Source: Escherichia phage vB_EcoS_AHP42. From it: 46,847 nucleotides of DNA. Shown here piece after piece: positions 30,550-36,163 of the stretch; the first letter of the stretch is position 1; each line of letters starts with the position of its first letter. The notes beneath the pieces are model-generated. The model was not told where the DNA came from. It did no database searches and saw only the letters and a program-made list of their open reading frames with translations. A program made the translations under genes and the position numbers. The DNA lies in the sequence record NC_024793.1; one strand, 5' to 3'.

Positions 30550-30591
30550 TAGCACTTTTTGTTAAACATTGGTTTAGATGGCTGTTATTAT
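30550..30591 (+). promoter_or_regulatory. dyad-associated promoter upstream of the helicase gene
   Basis: TAGCAC-ttt-TTGTTA, 21 nt, TATTAT, then CAATCGAACGAAC; overlaps the divergent HTH gene upstream region. Confidence 0.55.
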
Positions 30592-30628
30592 ATCGTCAAT
30601 CGAACGAACATTAAAGGCATTTGATATT

Positions 30629-32572
30629 ATGGAAAACCGATTGAAAACAATACAAAAACAGATTGAAGAATTGGGCGAAGATAAGATTAAAGAGATTCAA
30701 ACTAAATTCACCTCTTCTAACGGCATGGTTCCGTATAGCTATCAGTGTGTTATGTACAATGAGATTGCAAAGCGCATTAGTCGCTATGAGCATCCATTTA
30801 TCGCAATGGCTTCAGTTTCTGCTGGTAAGACTCTGGTTTTTGGTATGGTTGCTAAGCGTTGCTCTGAGCTTGGCTTGCCTATGCTTGTTCTTGCTCGTCA
30901 GGCAGAGCTGGTTAGCCAGAATGCTTCTGAGATTTCTGATTACGGGGTTCCTAACTCCATTTATTGCTCTGGGCTTGGAATAAAATCATCTTATTTCCCT
31001 GTGGTGGTTGGCTCTGAGGGCACAGTAGTTGGCGGGCTTAAGAAGTCACTTGGCGATTTCTGTCCTGCGGTAGTTGCTATTGATGAGTGTCACCATATTG
31101 ATGACCAGGACATAGCGGAGGCAATTGATAACAATGAGACTGCGCAACAGGCATCAGATAAGGGGCGTAGCCAGTATACGGTCATCATCCTGACTTTAAT
31201 GGAGCGCTGCCGTGCTAAGTATGGCAAGAATCTTCGTATCTTTGGACTGACTGGTTCTCCTTTCCGTGGAACTACGCCAATAGTTGTTGAAAACAAAAAG
31301 GAGTTGGGATTTTGGCGTGAGACGGTCACAAATATCGATACAAACTACCTGGTCGAGTTCGGTTCCGTGGTTCCGACAAACTTTGGTGCTACTGATGGCG
31401 TTGGTTACGACCTGTCAGAGTTTGATGCATCATCTGAAGATGGTGTTCAGGATTACACTAAAGCCCAGCTTGAAGCCATGGATAAAAAGATTCAGGCATC
31501 TGGAACAATGACAGCGGAGATAATGAAGAAAGTATGGCTTGCCGCGAAAAACAGGAATGGAGTTCTGGTAACATGCGCAGGTGAGCGCCATTGCCACGAA
31601 GCCGCAAGTTACCTTCCTGAAGGTGAAAAGTTCTGCATTATAACTGGAAAGACTGGCGAGAAGCAGCGCAAGGAGTTGCTTGATAAGTGCTTTAGCGGGG
31701 AGATTAAATATTGCTTTCAGGTTCAGGCGCTAACCACTGGCGTAAATGTGCCTACATGGGATACAAGCGTTATTCTGCGTAAGATTGGTAGCCTTACGCT
31801 CCTGGTTCAGCTACTTGGTCGAGGAATGCGTAAGCTTAAGAAGCTCCATGAAGATAAAGGAATGGTCAAGAATGACCATTTGGTACTGGACTTCGCAGGA
31901 ACGATGGACTCTATGGCATCATTGTACTTCAATCCAATTCTTGAGCAGGCTCAATATCAGCTACGAAAGAGTAATGGCAAGGAGACTAAGCAGTGTCCAG
32001 TATGCGGAACAGAGAACAGCTTCTTTGCTCGACGTTGCATGCATATTGATGAGAATAATAATCGCTGCGAATATTTCTGGGTTAGTCGCACATGTGAAGA
32101 CCAGAAAGACCCACGAACCGGAAAGGTTATCGTTAAAGGCTGCGGAGTTCAGAATGACGTTGCAGCTAAGATTTGTAGGGGTTGCGATTGCACTTTGCTT
32201 GATCCAAATCTCAACTTAAGCGGCAAACATTACCGCAAGAACGACTGGTTTGATGTTGTTGACTTTAAGGTTGGGCTAACAAAGAACCAATCAGGAATCA
32301 TCTACAACTACATCCTTGATGATGGCATGGGTGGGACATTCAAAGCTCATGAGGTTTTCTTTGTAGAGTCTGACCATCGAGTATGTAAAACGCTCTGGTT
32401 GAACAATGGAATTAAAGGTCACGTAGTCGACATGAACGCTAAGCGATATATGGCTGCATATCGCAATGCTCGCAAGATTATGGAGTATGCGCAGTACATC
32501 CATGCCCCTAAGAGGGTAACTCACCGCAAGACCGCTAAAGGTGGCGATAATATTGCTAATAAGGAGTTCTAA
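30629..32572 (+). CDS. SF2 helicase (DEAH-type) with C-terminal zinc ribbons
   Basis: Walker A SAGKT, DECH box (VAIDECHH) and C-terminal Cys clusters. The track start at 30578 lies inside the conserved promoter/leader, so the ATG at 30629 is used. Confidence 0.75.
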   Translation: MENRLKTIQKQIEELGEDKIKEIQTKFTSSNGMVPYSYQCVMYNEIAKRISRYEHPFIAMASVSAGKTLVFGMVAKRCSELGLPMLVLARQAELVSQNASEISDYGVPNSIYCSGLGIKSSYFPVVVGSEGTVVGGLKKSLGDFCPAVVAIDECHHIDDQDIAEAIDNNETAQQASDKGRSQYTVIILTLMERCRAKYGKNLRIFGLTGSPFRGTTPIVVENKKELGFWRETVTNIDTNYLVEFGSVVPTNFGATDGVGYDLSEFDASSEDGVQDYTKAQLEAMDKKIQASGTMTAEIMKKVWLAAKNRNGVLVTCAGERHCHEAASYLPEGEKFCIITGKTGEKQRKELLDKCFSGEIKYCFQVQALTTGVNVPTWDTSVILRKIGSLTLLVQLLGRGMRKLKKLHEDKGMVKNDHLVLDFAGTMDSMASLYFNPILEQAQYQLRKSNGKETKQCPVCGTENSFFARRCMHIDENNNRCEYFWVSRTCEDQKDPRTGKVIVKGCGVQNDVAAKICRGCDCTLLDPNLNLSGKHYRKNDWFDVVDFKVGLTKNQSGIIYNYILDDGMGGTFKAHEVFFVESDHRVCKTLWLNNGIKGHVVDMNAKRYMAAYRNARKIMEYAQYIHAPKRVTHRKTAKGGDNIANKEF

Positions 32573-32961
32573 TGGTTAAGGTTTTTCACGACAAAACAAG
32601 CACGGACAAGGCTAAAGAGGTTGTTCACCAAATAAATTCAATAGCTTGGGTTCGCCACAACCATCCAGAGATATTTGCTTTTCACGTGAAGAATGAAGGT
32701 CTCAAGTCTATCGGCACAGCAATGAAGGACAAGCAGGAGGGAGTAATTAAGGGTGTATCAGATATTCTACTGATTGGACCAAATGGCTTTGCCGCAATAG
32801 AGCTTAAGCGAGCAATAAAATCAGATAGCAAGGTTTCAAAGGAGCAAAAGGAGTTCCTGGAAAAGGTATCAGAAACAGGAGGTTACGCGGCAATCTGTTA
32901 TGGGTTTGAAATGTTTAAGTTGGCAATTACAGATTATCTATCAAATGGCACGAATTGCTAA
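32572..32961 (+). CDS. putative VRR-NUC nuclease
   Basis: 129 aa with GVSDILLIGPNGFAAIELKRA...SKEQKEFLEKVSETGGYAAICYG, resembling the VRR-NUC D-E-K core; ATGG overlap with the helicase stop. Confidence 0.55.
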   Translation: MVKVFHDKTSTDKAKEVVHQINSIAWVRHNHPEIFAFHVKNEGLKSIGTAMKDKQEGVIKGVSDILLIGPNGFAAIELKRAIKSDSKVSKEQKEFLEKVSETGGYAAICYGFEMFKLAITDYLSNGTNC

Positions 32962-33829: not shown

Positions 33830-34065
33830 TAGTTGAAAGCGGACGCGCCGCTGTATGGGCGCATTGTGGAGAGGCGGGATTGCAGGATGACATCAAGATG
33901 ATAGGTAAATACTTTGATATTGATGACATATCTGTAGTTTTCAATGGGAAGTTTAGTTATATGAACCAGCGGCCACGCAAGTATGTAAGAGTTCCAGCAA
34001 CGCCTAGCCTCGCAATGTATCGCGAGGAAGGTAAGAAGATATTTAAGAAAGGTGCGAAGAAATGA
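33826..34065 (+). CDS. hypothetical protein
   Basis: ATG at 33826 is coupled to the upstream small ORF; the track start at 33781 is a TTG with no RBS. Confidence 0.45.
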   Translation: MIVESGRAAVWAHCGEAGLQDDIKMIGKYFDIDDISVVFNGKFSYMNQRPRKYVRVPATPSLAMYREEGKKIFKKGAKK

Positions 34066-34319
34066 ATTTACCTGGTCTAGATTTTGCTGAGAGTAAGTAT
34101 CAGGTTGTGTTTTTTGGTGAGAAGCCTTATCGGAAGATTCCTTTCTCTGAGTGGATTCCTCCGGACTACCTCGATGTACTGGTGCAAATTGAGATTGGTA
34201 AAGCTGAGTTGATGTACTATTCGCCAGGTTGCAATATGATGATGCCTAGTGAGTATTCACCAGCAATTTCTGCTCTAGAAACTGAGTTTCTTGATTACTG
34301 GCTAAAAGAAGTAAAATAG
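34062..34319 (+). CDS. hypothetical protein
   Basis: 85 aa, ATGA overlap with the upstream gene; its TAG stop lies inside the next dyad element. Confidence 0.45.
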   Translation: MNLPGLDFAESKYQVVFFGEKPYRKIPFSEWIPPDYLDVLVQIEIGKAELMYYSPGCNMMMPSEYSPAISALETEFLDYWLKEVK

Positions 34320-34358
34320 CACTTTTTGTTAAAAACATCGCCACGGATGGCGTATAGT
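34317..34358 (+). promoter_or_regulatory. dyad-associated promoter upstream of the phosphoesterase unit
   Basis: TAGCAC-ttt-TTGTTA, 21 nt, TATAGT, then TTCATCGAAACGAGAG. Confidence 0.55.
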
Positions 34359-34386
34359 GTGTTCATCGAAACGAGAGACGCTTCAG

Positions 34387-34455
34387 ATGAAAACATTACT
34401 ACCGTTGCTGGCGGTACCAGTAACCTTTATAATCATGTACTTCATAATCTGCTAA
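34387..34455 (+). CDS. hydrophobic mini-ORF (22 aa, MKTLLPLLAVPVTFIIMYFIIC)
   Basis: Sits between a palindrome-associated promoter and the metallophosphoesterase gene; RBS-like GAGAG upstream. Confidence 0.3.
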   Translation: MKTLLPLLAVPVTFIIMYFIIC

Positions 34456-34469
34456 TAGGAAATTAAATA

Positions 34470-35606
34470 ATGGCTATCGCTAAAATCACCAACGAAGAGT
34501 TAAAGCAAGAACTGGCTAACGGTATGACTAACAAGGCAATCGCAGAGAAGTACGGTATGAATATTCGTAACGTAGAGCTGCGTCGCAGCAAGCTGGCTAA
34601 GGCTGGGGATGGTCACGGTCGCGATGTGAGTAACCTAATTCCTCAGGGCTACATGGTTAAAGGTGTATCTAGCCTTGTTGATAATGATGGCAATGTGAAG
34701 TTGCAATGGGTTAAGTCCTCTATTGATGCAGAGAAGCTTGAGGAGATGATGAATCAAGCGCGAGAGGCATTCTCTAGCGAGCTACCAAAAGAAAAAGCAG
34801 TTAAATCTGAAGGTCTGAATTTTGATGAAGATACTTTAGCTATGTATCCAGTATTTGACCTTCACATTGGCGCAATGGCCCACAAGCATGAGTGCGGAGA
34901 AAACTACGACACAGCAACGGCAGAGAAAGTAATGAACGATTATTTTGACTACGCCGTACAGAAATCTCCAAATTCAAAGAATGCTGTACTAGTGCTAGGA
35001 GGTGATCTGCTTCATTATGATTCCTTGGAAGCCAAAACTCCAGCCAGTGGTCACATCCTGGACAGTGACAGTCGCTACGCCAAGATTGTTTATGTTTGCA
35101 TTCGAGCGGTTCGCCGCGCAATTCGAAACATGCTTAGCAAACATGAAAACGTAGAGGTTAAAGTTATATCTGGTAATCATGATGAAAGTGGTATGGTTTG
35201 GTTGCGGGCTGCGCTTGCTGCATTTTATGAGGAAGAGCCACGCGTTAGTATTGATGTTAGTCCCGCGGCAATGATGGTAACTAAGTTTGGTTCTACAATG
35301 CTTGGTTTCACTCACGGGCATCAAATGCGTAAAGCTGATACTCGCCTTTCGGTTATGGCTACTGACTGGCGACGTGACTTTGGTTTAAGTGATTATGTAT
35401 ACACCCACTCAGGCCACTGGCATTCACAGAAGATTACAGAGACAAATCTTGGTATTGATGAGGTTCATGGTCAGCTTGGTTCACCAGATGCATATAGTGC
35501 GAATGGCGGGTGGCGCTCACAAAGGCAGGCTGCGGTAATCATATATCATAAAGAGTTTGGTGAGGTTGGTCGTTTTATCTGTCGCCCAGAAATGTTTAAT
35601 AAATAG
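34470..35606 (+). CDS. HTH-domain metallophosphoesterase (calcineurin-like, Mre11/SbcD-type motif order)
   Basis: N-terminal HTH-like MTNKAIAEKYGMNIRNVELRR, then DLHIG, GGDLLHYD, GNHDE and GHWH in the canonical metallophosphoesterase order. Confidence 0.6.
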   Translation: MAIAKITNEELKQELANGMTNKAIAEKYGMNIRNVELRRSKLAKAGDGHGRDVSNLIPQGYMVKGVSSLVDNDGNVKLQWVKSSIDAEKLEEMMNQAREAFSSELPKEKAVKSEGLNFDEDTLAMYPVFDLHIGAMAHKHECGENYDTATAEKVMNDYFDYAVQKSPNSKNAVLVLGGDLLHYDSLEAKTPASGHILDSDSRYAKIVYVCIRAVRRAIRNMLSKHENVEVKVISGNHDESGMVWLRAALAAFYEEEPRVSIDVSPAAMMVTKFGSTMLGFTHGHQMRKADTRLSVMATDWRRDFGLSDYVYTHSGHWHSQKITETNLGIDEVHGQLGSPDAYSANGGWRSQRQAAVIIYHKEFGEVGRFICRPEMFNK

Positions 35607-35671
35607 CACAAATAGTCAAGAAACTACCCGCGAAAGCGGGTATTTTTGTTTCACACAACTGAGGAGGTAAT

Positions 35672-36163
35672 ATGAATTGGAATGATTTTCTCGAATATAG
35701 AGATGGAAAGCTTTACTGGACAGATCCACACTCAACAAAATTTAAGCCAGGGGATGAGGCTGGATGTAGGCATCATAGGGGTTATCATTATATAAGGAGA
35801 TATAACACCGCGATGTCAAGGCATAGGATAGTATTGACAATGTTTAATGGAGAGATACCGGAAGGCATGGAGATTGATCACATAGACCATGACGTTGATA
35901 ATGATCGGATTGAAAACCTAAGAATGGTTACAAGGAGGCAGAACAATCAAAACAAAAAGCTAGATGAAAGAAATACTAGCGGACATGTTGGGGTTAGTTG
36001 GAACAAGAAGACAAACAAATGGAGAGCAATGATAGGTATAAAGGATAATGACGGGAAGCGGAAAACGGTATATGTTTATTATGGTGACTCTTTCGACGAC
36101 GCGGTATTGGCAAGGAAGAAAGCTGAAGCTGAATACTCATTTCATGAAAATCACGGAAAATAG
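35672..36163 (+). CDS. HNH homing endonuclease (AP2-type), paralog of 15979..16467
   Basis: MNWNDFLEYRDGKLYW N-terminus plus HNH core; strong GAGGAGG RBS; AGG/AGA-rich codon usage. Confidence 0.75.
   Translation: MNWNDFLEYRDGKLYWTDPHSTKFKPGDEAGCRHHRGYHYIRRYNTAMSRHRIVLTMFNGEIPEGMEIDHIDHDVDNDRIENLRMVTRRQNNQNKKLDERNTSGHVGVSWNKKTNKWRAMIGIKDNDGKRKTVYVYYGDSFDDAVLARKKAEAEYSFHENHGK

What the first reader, a model, noticed from the sequence alone, without database searches (positions are those of the whole stretch)
34387..35606. HTH-metallophosphoesterase preceded by a 22-aa hydrophobic leader ORF
The 378-aa protein joins an N-terminal HTH-like segment to a calcineurin-like phosphoesterase core whose motif order (D-x-H, GD-x-x-H, GNHD/E, GH-x-H) matches Mre11/SbcD-type nucleases more than PPP-family protein phosphatases (no GDxVDRG). 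It is separated from its promoter by a tiny ORF encoding MKTLLPLLAVPVTFIIMYFIIC. It could be a DNA-end-processing nuclease, a nucleotide-signal-degrading enzyme or a phosphatase, and I cannot tell which from sequence.
Basis: partly seen in the sequence, partly recalled or inferred. Interest (0 to 1): 0.55.

Follow-up and report, generated by a model that had tools for sequence, protein, structure and literature searches.

The report
Phage HTH-nuclease-like phosphoesterase with conserved microprotein
A T1-like E. coli phage encodes a DNA-binding-domain-plus-metallophosphoesterase protein of a very common but biochemically uncharacterised phage family, and the tiny hydrophobic ORF just upstream is a conserved, almost never annotated 22-29-residue membrane-type microprotein gene rather than a chance ORF.

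The parts
34329..34358 (+). Promoter-like hexamers TTAAAA-18 nt-TATAGT inside a 67-nt spacer specific to the Rogunavirus lineage. Unverified and probably not a conserved feature.
   Evidence: 9 of 12 matches; 5 sites in the region against 7.4 expected from shuffles; the spacer is absent in T1, Braunvirinae and phiEB49-type relatives, where the sORF start overlaps the upstream stop. AKS96 annotators marked no promoter here.
34387..34455 (+). Conserved small ORF encoding a 22-aa hydrophobic, single-transmembrane-helix-like microprotein, MKTLLPLLAVPVTFIIMYFIIC. Shared features across lineages: a basic residue at position 2, a central Pro, and a Tyr 5-6 residues from the C-terminus.
   Evidence: 76 of 85 loci, about 30 distinct peptides, 22-29 aa, GRAVY 1.3-2.3, ending 1-14 nt before the MPE start. 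(pN/pS 0.1-0.5 within alignable groups at pS up to about 0.6). (12 of 13 lineages against 0.039 expected). (duplicated together with the MPE gene in L010). (called as a protein in only 2 public records).
34404..34424 (+). 8-bp hairpin inside the sORF (GTTGCTGG-CGGTA-CCAGTAAC). It is lineage-specific, with one compensatory C-G to A-T change in close relatives. There is no evidence that it is regulatory.
   Evidence: The leader RNA as a whole is no more stable than shuffles (z -1.0). No comparable hairpin appears in other subfamilies. No Rfam match.
34457..34460 (+). Shine-Dalgarno (AGGA) of the MPE gene. It lies 1 nt after the sORF stop codon (34453-34455) and 9 nt before the ATG, a layout typical of translational coupling.
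   Evidence: Sequence. The same arrangement occurs in relatives, for example T1 TAAGGA overlapping the sORF stop, and Webervirus GGGA inside the last sORF codons with a 3-nt gap.
34470..35606 (+). HTH-metallophosphoesterase gene (378 aa), PHROG 704. Ortholog of T1 ORF ST16 (YP_003929.1) and of Bas01_0050.
34491..34601 (+). N-terminal three-helix HTH (residues 8-44), LuxR/GerE / sigma-70 region 4 type.
   Evidence: helices 8-16, 21-28, 32-44. (GerE 14 bits, sub-threshold). (SsrB E 0.023; GerE 1fse E 0.01). (HTH_28 in 19, HTH_23 in 17, Sigma70_r4_2 in 12 and GerE in 10 of 56 homologs).
34647..34823 (+). Linker module (residues 60-118): a beta-hairpin and a long helix. G74 and W80 are nearly invariant across the family. 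Function unknown.
   Evidence: E63-70, E76-83, H85-102; pLDDT 52-68. (G74, W80 at 90% or more). It is retained in Campylobacter and Vibrio phage homologs that lack the HTH.
34824..35579 (+). Binuclear metallophosphoesterase catalytic domain (residues 119-370) with all metal-ligand and catalytic residues intact. No C-terminal capping domain follows.
   Evidence: invariant D130, H132, D179, H182, N236, H237, H282, H318. (fold).
35625..35652 (+). Intrinsic terminator (7-bp GC-rich stem plus T-tract) that ends the transcription unit right after the MPE gene.
   Evidence: The same feature is annotated in AKS96 and T1.

Best explanation
The locus is a two-gene unit at the 3' end of the DNA-metabolism operon of a T1-like phage. 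The operon order is helicase, VRR-NUC, small ORFs, sORF, MPE, terminator, followed by a homing HNH gene and the lysis cassette. Gene 1 (34387-34455) is a real, translated 22-aa hydrophobic microprotein. Its stop codon abuts the Shine-Dalgarno of gene 2, so ribosomes finishing the sORF probably feed or limit initiation on gene 2. Gene 2 (34470-35606) encodes a metal-dependent phosphodiesterase. Its catalytic MPE domain is tethered to nucleic acid by an N-terminal LuxR/sigma70-r4-type HTH. It most likely cuts DNA, either the host chromosome or DNA ends and intermediates. It is an accessory, host-toxic function rather than an essential replication protein. Its activity in the infected cell is what makes T1-like phages visible to the DRT7/UG10 reverse-transcriptase defence. 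SHOWN here: both ORFs; the fold; an intact active site; the HTH; family breadth; sORF conservation and purifying selection; and the coupling geometry. SHOWN by others for the 65%-identical ortholog family (Bas01_0050): toxicity in E. coli, and missense or frameshift mutations that give viable DRT7 escapers. INFERRED: DNA as substrate; nuclease chemistry; host-DNA attack; translation of the sORF; and sORF-MPE coupling.
Confidence: 0.55

Rival explanations
1. It is a stand-alone Mre11/SbcD-like recombination or repair nuclease. It would act on the phage's own DNA, processing ends, hairpins or concatemer junctions together with the phage RecE-like exonuclease, Erf, VRR-NUC and helicases, rather than attacking the host.
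For: It lies in the same operon as the helicase and VRR-NUC nuclease. The Campylobacter phage homolog sits next to a DNA ligase and a Holliday-junction resolvase. SbcD and Mre11 are among the top structural and sequence matches. The GDxxH and GNHD motifs resemble Mre11 (from memory of Mre11 motifs). Lambda escapes DRT7 via Gam, an end-protection factor, which suggests a DNA-end-related theme.
Against: It has no capping domain, no Rad50/SbcC-like ATPase anywhere in the genome and no SbcD/Mre11 profile hit. Frameshift escapers are viable. It is toxic when expressed alone. In several phage groups the gene lies outside recombination modules.
Confidence: 0.2
2. It is an anti-defence or metabolic phosphodiesterase acting on small molecules. 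Candidates are cyclic (oligo)nucleotide immune signals, cAMP, Ap4A, or nucleotides for salvage. It would not act on polymeric DNA.
Against: An HTH fusion conserved through most of a family of 5428 clusters is hard to explain for a small-molecule enzyme. Strong toxicity in a lab E. coli strain is not expected from degrading signal molecules. There is no PADLOC or known anti-defence family match. Losing the gene helps the phage against DRT7, which is the opposite of an anti-defence factor for that system.
Confidence: 0.08
3. It is primarily a transcription regulator, as annotated in Dinoroseobacter phage R4C. The HTH would be the effector and the MPE domain a sensor or accessory module.
For: The HTH is sigma70-r4/LuxR-type. 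The gene sits at the boundary of the operon before the lysis genes in Drexlerviridae and some prophages. The R4C homolog is annotated 'transcriptional regulator'.
Against: All catalytic residues are invariant over deep divergence, which argues for catalysis. Homologs without the HTH exist. No conserved operator-like repeats were looked for or found.
Confidence: 0.07
4. It is a protein Ser/Thr/Tyr phosphatase of the lambda-PP type.
For: It belongs to the same superfamily and has a GNHD/E-type motif III.
Confidence: 0.03
5. The small ORF is only a regulatory upstream ORF (a coupling or attenuation device) whose peptide has no function of its own, or it is not translated at all.
For: Its stop abuts the MPE Shine-Dalgarno. 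Most relatives chain it by ATGA overlap to the upstream gene. pN/pS is not very low (0.1-0.5). T-rich sequence easily encodes hydrophobic residues.
Against: The peptide's character is kept across lineages whose DNA is no longer alignable: length 22-29 aa, a basic N-terminus, a central Pro, a Tyr near the C-terminus and GRAVY 1.3-2.3. Only this frame is open. No conserved RNA structure or terminator alternative exists. It travels with the MPE gene whatever the upstream gene is, and it was co-duplicated with the MPE gene.
Confidence: 0.2

Closest known systems
PHROG 704 ('DNA repair exonuclease'): T1 ORF ST16 (YP_003929.1) and Bas01_0050 of BASEL phage Bas01/AugustePiccard
   Same: Full-length homology: E 1.7e-155 to the PHROG, 76% identity to T1 and 65% to the Bas01/Bas03 protein. 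It has the same HTH-linker-MPE architecture, the same operon position and the same upstream sORF.
   Different: Nothing structural differs; it is an ordinary member. The family name is an annotation by similarity, not a tested function. The only experimental data are DRT7 escape mutations and toxicity for Bas01_0050.
Mre11 / SbcD (and T4 gp47) DNA-end nucleases
   Different: It has no capping domain, no Rad50-binding helices and no Rad50/SbcC/gp46 partner gene. It has an N-terminal HTH instead. No curated SbcD/Mre11 profile matches.
Archaeal PolD small subunit DP1 (3'-5' exonuclease) and eukaryotic polymerase B-subunits
   Different: No OB-fold domain is predicted. This phage encodes no DNA polymerase. 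Unlike the eukaryotic B-subunits, the active site is intact.
Mycobacteriophage cluster A MPE (A10ZJ24 Gp48; Bxb1 gp47 family, PHROG 221)
   Same: It is a phage-encoded MPE with all five motifs, toxic to the host. It has phosphodiesterase activity and degrades host DNA (PMC12287305). This is the best functional precedent.
   Different: It belongs to a different family: PHROG 221 rather than 704, and hhalign probability is only 7%, with motifs III-V aligned. It is about 255 aa and has no HTH.
Phage T5 A1 (host DNA degradation, pre-early, highly toxic)
   Same: It is a toxic phage protein needed for host DNA degradation, and it is also a determinant of sensitivity to a reverse-transcriptase-based defence (retron Ec67).
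   Different: No detectable homology: PHROG 1745, no Pfam hit, and hhalign probability 16% on a 20-residue 'NHD..WL' stretch. My recollection that A1 is MPE-like could not be confirmed here.
Small hydrophobic bacterial and phage membrane peptides (type I toxins such as Ibs or ShoB, and small regulators such as AcrZ or MgtS), named from memory only
   Same: The sORF product is similar in size (22-29 aa) and is essentially a single hydrophobic helix with a basic N-terminus.
   Different: No sequence relationship was tested or is claimed. There is no antisense RNA evidence. Here the peptide gene is embedded in a phage operon and coupled to a nuclease-like gene.

Membership tests
Calcineurin-like metallophosphoesterase (MPE) superfamily | Five motifs carrying the metal ligands and the catalytic His: DxH, GD, GNH(D/E), H, GHxH | tested here: met
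   D130xH132, G178D179, G235N236H237D238, H282, G315H316xH318. D130, H132, D179, N236, H237, H282 and H318 are invariant in 56 sequences at 28-41% identity.
Calcineurin-like metallophosphoesterase (MPE) superfamily | Alpha/beta-sandwich MPE fold | tested here: met
Calcineurin-like metallophosphoesterase (MPE) superfamily | Pfam PF00149 Metallophos gathering threshold | tested here: inconclusive
   19.6 bits against a cut-off of 21.5 for this protein. 23 of 56 homologs match at E of 0.1 or better, best 7.2e-6.
PHROG 704 (phage 'DNA repair exonuclease') | Full-length match to the family HMM | tested here: met
   E 1.7e-155, residues 4-376 on profile positions 2-389 of 390.
Mre11 / SbcD nuclease family | MPE nuclease domain with Mre11-type motifs | tested here: met
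Mre11 / SbcD nuclease family | C-terminal capping domain and Rad50-binding region | tested here: not met
Mre11 / SbcD nuclease family | Partner Rad50/SbcC/gp46 SMC-like ATPase encoded with it | tested here: not met
   No such gene is present in the 46.8-kb genome. This rests on the ORF list and the full annotation of the 98.6%-identical phage AKS96.
Mre11 / SbcD nuclease family | Match to curated SbcD/Mre11 sequence models | tested here: not met
   No NCBIfam SbcD/Mre11 model matches at E of 1 or better. PDB sequence matches to SbcD/Mre11 reach only E 0.12-0.3.
PPP-family protein phosphatases (lambda-PP, calcineurin, PP1/PP5) | Signature GDxHG / GDxVDRG / GNHE (signature recalled from established knowledge) | tested here: not met
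PdeM / 'Nuclease MPE' (ligase- or Lhr-associated DNA-damage endonuclease, TIGR04123) | Score above the curated NCBIfam cut-off | tested here: not met
   15.4 bits against a cut-off of 150, matching only 27 residues. PDB entry 6nvo matches at E 0.21.
PolD DP1 / polymerase B-subunit family | OB-fold domain preceding the MPE domain, and a cognate polymerase catalytic subunit | tested here: not met
   Residues 60-118 are predicted as one beta-hairpin plus a helix, not a five-stranded OB fold (at low confidence). The phage has no DNA polymerase gene.
Cluster A mycobacteriophage MPE (Gp48 / Bxb1 gp47; PHROG 221) | Family-level sequence homology | tested here: not met
   Bxb1 gp47 falls in PHROG 221, not 704. 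hhalign against the family profile gives 7% probability.
T5 A1 family (PHROG 1745) | Family-level sequence homology | tested here: not met
   hhalign probability 16% over 20 columns, and a different PHROG. The comparison used a single A1 sequence, so a very remote relationship is not excluded.
LuxR/GerE - sigma-70 region 4 type HTH | Tri-helical HTH matching curated HTH profiles | tested here: inconclusive
   For this protein GerE scores 14.1 bits against a cut-off of 23.5. Family profiles hit GerE (1fse) at E 0.01 and SsrB at E 0.023. Homologs reach Sigma70_r4_2 at 1.5e-9, GerE at 2.4e-8 and HTH_28 at 1.4e-6. The model shows three helices at residues 8-44. Taken together this is convincing at family level.
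Transcription-attenuation or ribosome-arrest leader peptide | Conserved alternative RNA structures or a terminator between the leader ORF and the regulated gene | tested here: not met
   Leader RNA folding gives z -1.0 against shuffles. The one hairpin is lineage-specific. There is no Rfam match. Only 1-14 nt separate the sORF stop from the MPE start. Peptide-mediated arrest is not testable with these tools.

The most novel reading that the evidence does not exclude
The 22-29-aa hydrophobic peptide is a dedicated functional partner of the toxic HTH-MPE: a membrane tether, a dosage governor or an immunity/antitoxin-like factor. 'Small membrane protein gene directly upstream of an HTH-MPE gene' would then be a recurrent two-gene module in unrelated phage lineages. 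Examples seen are Drexlerviridae (22-29 aa), Guernseyvirinae (Imm_superinfect-like, 59-68 aa), Rhodobacterales prophages (65-81 aa with overlapping stop and start) and a cyanobacterial contig (110 aa). The nuclease activity of this module would be the infection signal sensed, directly or indirectly, by DRT7/UG10.
Probability: 0.15. Interest if true: 0.65.

Novelty: new member of a known kind. Interest (0 to 1): 0.4.

Why it matters
PHROG 704 is one of the most widespread accessory genes of T1-like, Jersey-like, Dhillon-like and many marine siphophages. It occurs in 2015 of about 50,700 phage records and in more than 5000 clusters at 50% identity. Even so, its label 'DNA repair exonuclease' has never been tested. 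A 2026 preprint shows that losing the Bas1 ortholog lets the phage escape DRT7/UG10, and that the protein is toxic. Knowing what it cuts would therefore bear directly on how a reverse-transcriptase defence senses infection, and possibly on how T1-type phages attack host DNA. The analysis here gives experimenters several concrete things: the catalytic residues to mutate (D130, H132, D179, N236, H237, H282, H318); the domain boundaries; a clear statement that it is not an Mre11/SbcD complex subunit; and the existence of a conserved, essentially unannotated microprotein gene that overlaps the MPE ribosome-binding region. That last point has a practical consequence. Constructs that clone the MPE gene with about 20 bp of upstream sequence, as was done for Bas01_0050, omit the sORF and any coupling or partner effect it may have.

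Tried and rejected
1. Direct sequence search of the PDB with the single protein gave only chance hits, ArnD and formyl-THF deformylase. It was rejected in favour of profile and fold searches.
2. T5 A1 as a homolog (a lead from memory): hhalign 16%, no Pfam hit and a different PHROG. Not supported.
3. The cluster A mycobacteriophage MPE as the same family: hhalign 7% and PHROG 221. It is a superfamily-level relative only and is kept as a functional precedent.
4. The m6-dAMP / PUA-Cal-HAD paper and the Stokar-Avihail escaper screen were checked for this gene. Both are unrelated; the relevant nucleases there are T2 denA and other genes.
5. The leader as a structured RNA, riboswitch or attenuator: no Rfam hit, z -1.0, and the hairpin is not conserved across subfamilies.
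6. The 46-aa ORF annotated in AKS96 (gp43, TTG start, other frame; equivalent to 34326..34466): rejected as the coding frame, because only the 22-aa frame is open and conserved across lineages.
7. The 32-aa GTG-extended version of the sORF (34357): the extension exists only in the Rogunavirus lineage, and the conserved start is the ATG at 34387.
8. The afdb50 fold library was unavailable. A genome-contig scan with the diverse alignment failed for lack of a conserved stretch. A single-protein scan gave only 6 prophage loci.
9. A search for temporal expression data or ribosome-profiling data on T1-like phages found nothing usable. The DRT7 preprint's supplement holds no list of mutations.
10. 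Classical T1 genetics (host DNA degradation genes) could not be retrieved from the library. Any link to those loci remains my recollection only.
Full report
IDENTITY OF THE WINDOW. The 378-aa product of 34470..35606 is 100% identical to a protein of Escherichia phage vB_EcoS_AHP42, seen on a contig of exactly 46,847 bp. The region is 98.6% identical to phage AKS96 and 97.7% identical to C119, both Rogunavirus, Drexlerviridae. The window is therefore a whole T1-like phage genome. Its gene order around the finding is: helicase (30578-32572), VRR-NUC nuclease (32572-32961; Pfam 1.1e-6), several small ORFs, an 85-aa PHROG 4596 protein (34062-34319), the small ORF, the MPE gene, a strong terminator (35625-35642), an HNH-AP2 homing endonuclease (35672-36163), three small ORFs, and then holin, endolysin and spanin.

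CHECK OF THE OBSERVATION. Both ORFs are at the stated coordinates. The PPP signature GDxVDRG is absent. The large ORF matches PHROG 704 ('DNA repair exonuclease') over its full length at E 1.7e-155. tblastn finds homologs in 2015 of 50,697 phage records, in Escherichia, Klebsiella, Salmonella, Vibrio, Campylobacter, Rhodobacter and other hosts. An exhaustive profile search finds 5428 clusters at 50% identity with E of 1e-3 or better, and 1380 with E of 1e-30 or better. Most are 370-420 aa and match nearly end to end. Pfam alone is weak for this sequence: Metallophos scores 19.6 bits against a cut-off of 21.5, and GerE scores 14.1 bits. That explains why many records call it 'hypothetical'.

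THE PROTEIN. In an alignment of 29 relatives of 60-83% identity, all MPE motifs are invariant. In a second alignment of 56 representatives at only 28-41% identity, nine columns are invariant: D130, H132, D179, H182, N236, H237, H282, H318 and G364. Nearly invariant are G178, D184, G235, D238, G283, G315, H316, D340, G74, W80, E141, T190, D198 and R202. This is the complete metal-ligand and catalytic set of an active binuclear metallophosphoesterase, so the enzyme is almost certainly catalytically competent.

At sequence-profile level, the only PDB matches in the catalytic half are nucleases, all sub-threshold: T. maritima SbcD/Mre11 at E 0.12-0.3 and P. putida 'Nuclease MPE' at E 0.21. NCBIfam offers only a faint match to the DNA-damage endonuclease PdeM, at 15 bits against a cut-off of 150. 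PADLOC gives nothing. The fold claim and the 'closer to nucleases and phosphodiesterases than to PPP phosphatases' claim therefore hold. However, the scores do not single out Mre11/SbcD.

THE N-TERMINAL DOMAIN. Family profiles hit LuxR/GerE-type HTH domains: SsrB at E 0.023 and GerE 1fse at E 0.01, plus many NarL/FixJ-class C-terminal domains. When the 56 homologs are scanned individually, 19 match HTH_28, 17 match HTH_23, 12 match Sigma70_r4_2 (best 1.5e-9) and 10 match GerE (best 2.4e-8). The HTH is real at family level. It is missing in the Campylobacter phage homologs (317 aa, starting at PHROG 704 profile position 78) and is not aligned in some Vibrio and Ruegeria homologs.

WHAT IT IS NOT. 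Mre11/SbcD membership fails on three defining features. There is no capping or Rad50-binding region. There is no Rad50/SbcC/gp46-like ATPase in the genome. There is no curated-profile hit. It is not a DP1 or B-subunit: no OB fold is predicted, and the phage has no polymerase gene. It is not in the family of the experimentally studied mycobacteriophage MPE (A10ZJ24 Gp48 / Bxb1 gp47), which is PHROG 221 with hhalign probability 7%. It is not detectably related to T5 A1, which is PHROG 1745 with hhalign probability 16% on one short motif.

EXPERIMENTAL EVIDENCE FROM THE LITERATURE. A 2026 preprint on DRT7/UG10 reverse transcriptases (bioRxiv 10.64898/2026.02.16.706125) isolated Bas1 (Bas01, Drexlerviridae) mutants that escape DRT7. 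[quoted passage not shown] The gene could not be co-expressed with DRT7 because it is toxic in E. coli. Lambda escapes the same system by losing Gam.

I confirmed the orthology. Bas01_0050 (MZ501051 38005-39135) is 96.5% identical to bas03_0050 (P0040), which is 65% identical to the window protein over 99% of its length. It sits in the same operon position. Two things follow. The gene is dispensable for plaque formation. Its presence or activity is what DRT7-mediated defence depends on.

A functional precedent, from a different MPE family, is Gp48 of mycobacteriophage A10ZJ24. That protein has phosphodiesterase activity, is toxic and disrupts host genomic DNA (PMC12287305).

From memory only: T1 is known to degrade host DNA, and the responsible gene has, to my knowledge, not been pinned down. 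I could not retrieve that literature.

CONTEXT. In Webervirus (Drexlerviridae) and in Kagunavirus (Guernseyvirinae), the MPE gene is followed directly by a PNKP-type HAD 3'-phosphatase (HAD_PNKP 2.8e-20) and a dNMP kinase. That trio suggests nucleic-acid breakdown and salvage. Elsewhere the neighbours vary. In SECphi18 the gene lies between the lysis genes and the terminase. In Jersey-like phages it lies among tail genes. In a Campylobacter phage it lies next to a ligase and a Holliday-junction resolvase. In Vibrio phages it lies among endolysin and HNH genes. Context is therefore only weak evidence. Fragmented copies in JK06, phiJLA23 and Salmonella phage 36 fit dispensability, or they may be sequencing errors.

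THE SMALL ORF. This is the part that goes beyond existing annotation. In 85 Drexlerviridae loci, 76 carry a hydrophobic ORF directly upstream of the MPE gene, ending 1-14 nt before its start. The loci are the window, annotated records and IMG/VR contigs. The subfamilies covered are Rogunavirinae, Tunavirinae including T1 itself, Braunvirinae including Bas01, Tempevirinae and Webervirus. At least one of the nine misses is an artefact of start assignment.

There are about 30 distinct peptides of 22-29 aa. Examples:
- MKTLLPLLAVPVTFIIMYFIIC (window)
- MKLYFAVVLTPLISFSVMYFIIM (T1)
- MKSLILVALVPLFSFTILYFIVMN
- MRYIAILFTAILFTIAIINYAIQLG (Webervirus)
- M(RIIIM)WRLLLLPLPVMMAISIVYVVIMR (Tempevirinae)

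They share a basic residue after the Met, a hydrophobic run long enough for one transmembrane helix (GRAVY 1.3-2.3), usually a central Pro, and a Tyr 5-6 residues from the end. Across lineages the DNA is too diverged to align, and only this frame stays open.

In a shuffle control on 13 mutually diverged representatives, 12 met the criteria, against a summed expectation of 0.039. The thirteenth has the ORF at GRAVY 1.30, just under the cut-off. Within alignable groups, Nei-Gojobori pN/pS is 0.1-0.5 at pS up to about 0.6-0.7. One example pair shows 12 synonymous against 11 non-synonymous changes, giving pN/pS 0.27. That is moderate purifying selection.

The sORF stays with the MPE gene when the upstream gene differs, as in phiEB49-type phages. 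In a metagenomic contig with a tandem MPE duplication, the sORF was duplicated too. An intact copy (MIRIALFATTPAFAFGIIYALIMNN) lies before copy 1, and a remnant without a start codon lies before copy 2.

In most lineages the sORF ATG overlaps the stop of the upstream gene (ATGA). Its own stop abuts or overlaps the MPE Shine-Dalgarno. In the window the stop is at 34453-34455, the AGGA at 34457-34460 and the ATG at 34470. This is the geometry of a translationally coupled chain.

It is unannotated in T1, Bas01, Kpn01BRG, Fulano1 and UDF157lw. AKS96 annotates a 46-aa ORF in another frame. In a collection of 15 billion proteins, only the 28- and 29-aa forms occur, as 'hypothetical protein' in two phage records. 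The 22-25-aa forms are absent.

There is no sign of an RNA-based leader mechanism. Folding gives z -1.0, Rfam gives no hit, and the one hairpin (34404-34424) is confined to the Rogunavirus lineage despite a compensatory change there.

The 'promoter' (34329-34358) is a weak consensus match in a lineage-specific 67-nt spacer and is no better than chance.

Outside Drexlerviridae the 22-29-aa peptide is not found. Curiously, though, a small membrane-protein gene again sits directly upstream of the MPE gene in several other groups:
- Guernseyvirinae: Imm_superinfect-like, 59-68 aa.
- Three Rhodobacterales prophages: 65-81 aa, with overlapping stop and start in two of them.
- A cyanobacterial contig: 110 aa.
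It is absent in Dhillonvirus, Vibrio and Campylobacter phages. This could be coincidence.

MECHANISM, WITH LEVELS OF SUPPORT. Shown: an intact binuclear MPE domain of the nuclease/phosphodiesterase branch, fused to a DNA-binding-type HTH, expressed from the last cistron of a DNA-metabolism operon and preceded by a conserved microprotein cistron. Shown by others for the ortholog: toxicity, dispensability and a requirement for DRT7 sensitivity. Inferred: the enzyme hydrolyses phosphodiester bonds in DNA, with the HTH supplying affinity. This damages or degrades host DNA, or processes DNA ends. That activity, or the protein itself, is what DRT7 responds to. The sORF is translated, and termination-reinitiation at its stop sets the low level of a dangerous enzyme. 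The peptide may also act in the membrane on its own. I put about 0.55 on the DNA-directed accessory nuclease reading. I put about 0.2 on a phage-DNA recombination or repair role. The remainder is spread over a small-molecule phosphodiesterase, a regulator or a protein phosphatase.

NOVELTY AND VERDICT. The protein is an ordinary member of a very large phage family that is already catalogued but biochemically uncharacterised. The exact sequence is in GenBank as 'DNA repair exonuclease'. The Mre11/SbcD analogy should be limited to 'works like', not 'is a member of'. What is new is the demonstration that the tiny upstream ORF is a conserved, nearly always unannotated microprotein gene physically coupled to the MPE gene across Drexlerviridae. 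Interest is moderate (0.4). It is of practical value for groups studying DRT7 triggers and T1-like host takeover, but it is not a surprise to specialists.

Noticed in passing
window 35672-36163 (+): An HNH_3 + AP2-domain homing endonuclease lies directly downstream of the MPE terminator (Pfam 9.3e-19 and 3.2e-5). It is present in AHP42, AKS96 and C119 but absent from Rogue1, UDF157lw, AHP24 and AHS24, whose matches cover only 83% of the region in two pieces. T1, Bas01 and a Vibrio phage also carry an HNH gene at this position, so the site downstream of the MPE gene looks like a recurrent homing site.
   Followed up: partly
window 34326-34466 (+), equivalent to AKS96 gp43 (L001 3827-3967): The 46-aa TTG-start 'hypothetical protein' annotated in AKS96 is in a different frame from the conserved 22-aa ORF. 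It is not open in other lineages, so it is probably a mis-annotation.
   Followed up: yes
L010 2640-5128 (IMGVR_UViG_3300036846_000026): There is a tandem duplication of the sORF+MPE unit in a metagenomic Drexlerviridae contig. The upstream MPE copy is split into 221 + 155 aa, probably a pseudogene, and the downstream copy is intact. The sORF before the second copy has lost its start codon.
   Followed up: partly
L115 5741-5986; L116 5789-5986; L117 3238-3444; L120 5299-5631; L026 2257-2463; L027 2259-2438: A small membrane-protein gene sits immediately upstream of the HTH-MPE gene in lineages far from Drexlerviridae: Rhodobacterales prophages, a cyanobacterial MAG, and Guernseyvirinae (Imm_superinfect-like). 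It is absent in Dhillonvirus, Vibrio and Campylobacter phages. This may be chance or a recurrent pairing. No background rate was computed.
   Followed up: partly
L024 3660-4720 (Klebsiella phage Kpn01BRG); L026 3628-4667 (Kagunavirus fKuEco01): In two unrelated phage groups the MPE gene is followed by a stand-alone PNKP-type HAD 3'-phosphatase (163 aa, HAD_PNKP 2.8e-20) and a dNMP kinase. This suggests a nucleic-acid breakdown and salvage trio. These two genes are absent from the window.
   Followed up: partly
window 34404-34424 (+): The 8-bp hairpin inside the sORF keeps pairing through a double change (C-G in the window, A-T in AHS24/phiKP26-type relatives). The same changes also alter two codons conservatively (L to M, V to L). 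It is lineage-specific and of unknown significance.
   Followed up: partly
phage records MG065688.1 and PP134917.1: 'Campylobacter phage A110b' (44,238 bp) and 'Pseudomonas phage PsgS01F' (44,679 bp) encode MPE proteins 96.5-96.8% identical to that of the E. coli BASEL phage Bas03. PsgS01F has the same length as an E. coli phage record (PQ314493.1). These look like T1-like coliphages with doubtful host labels, or contaminants.
   Followed up: no
phage records DQ121662.1 (JK06), KC333879.1 (phiJLA23), Salmonella phage 36: In these records the MPE gene is annotated as two or three fragments, for example JK_62P/63P/64P and pieces of 103 aa and 112 aa. The cause is either real pseudogenisation of a dispensable gene or frameshift sequencing errors in older assemblies.
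   Followed up: no
window 32572-32961 (+): The 129-aa ORF just after the helicase is a VRR-NUC nuclease (Pfam 1.1e-6). It is annotated only as 'hypothetical protein' in AKS96, so the operon contains a second nuclease besides the MPE.
   Followed up: partly
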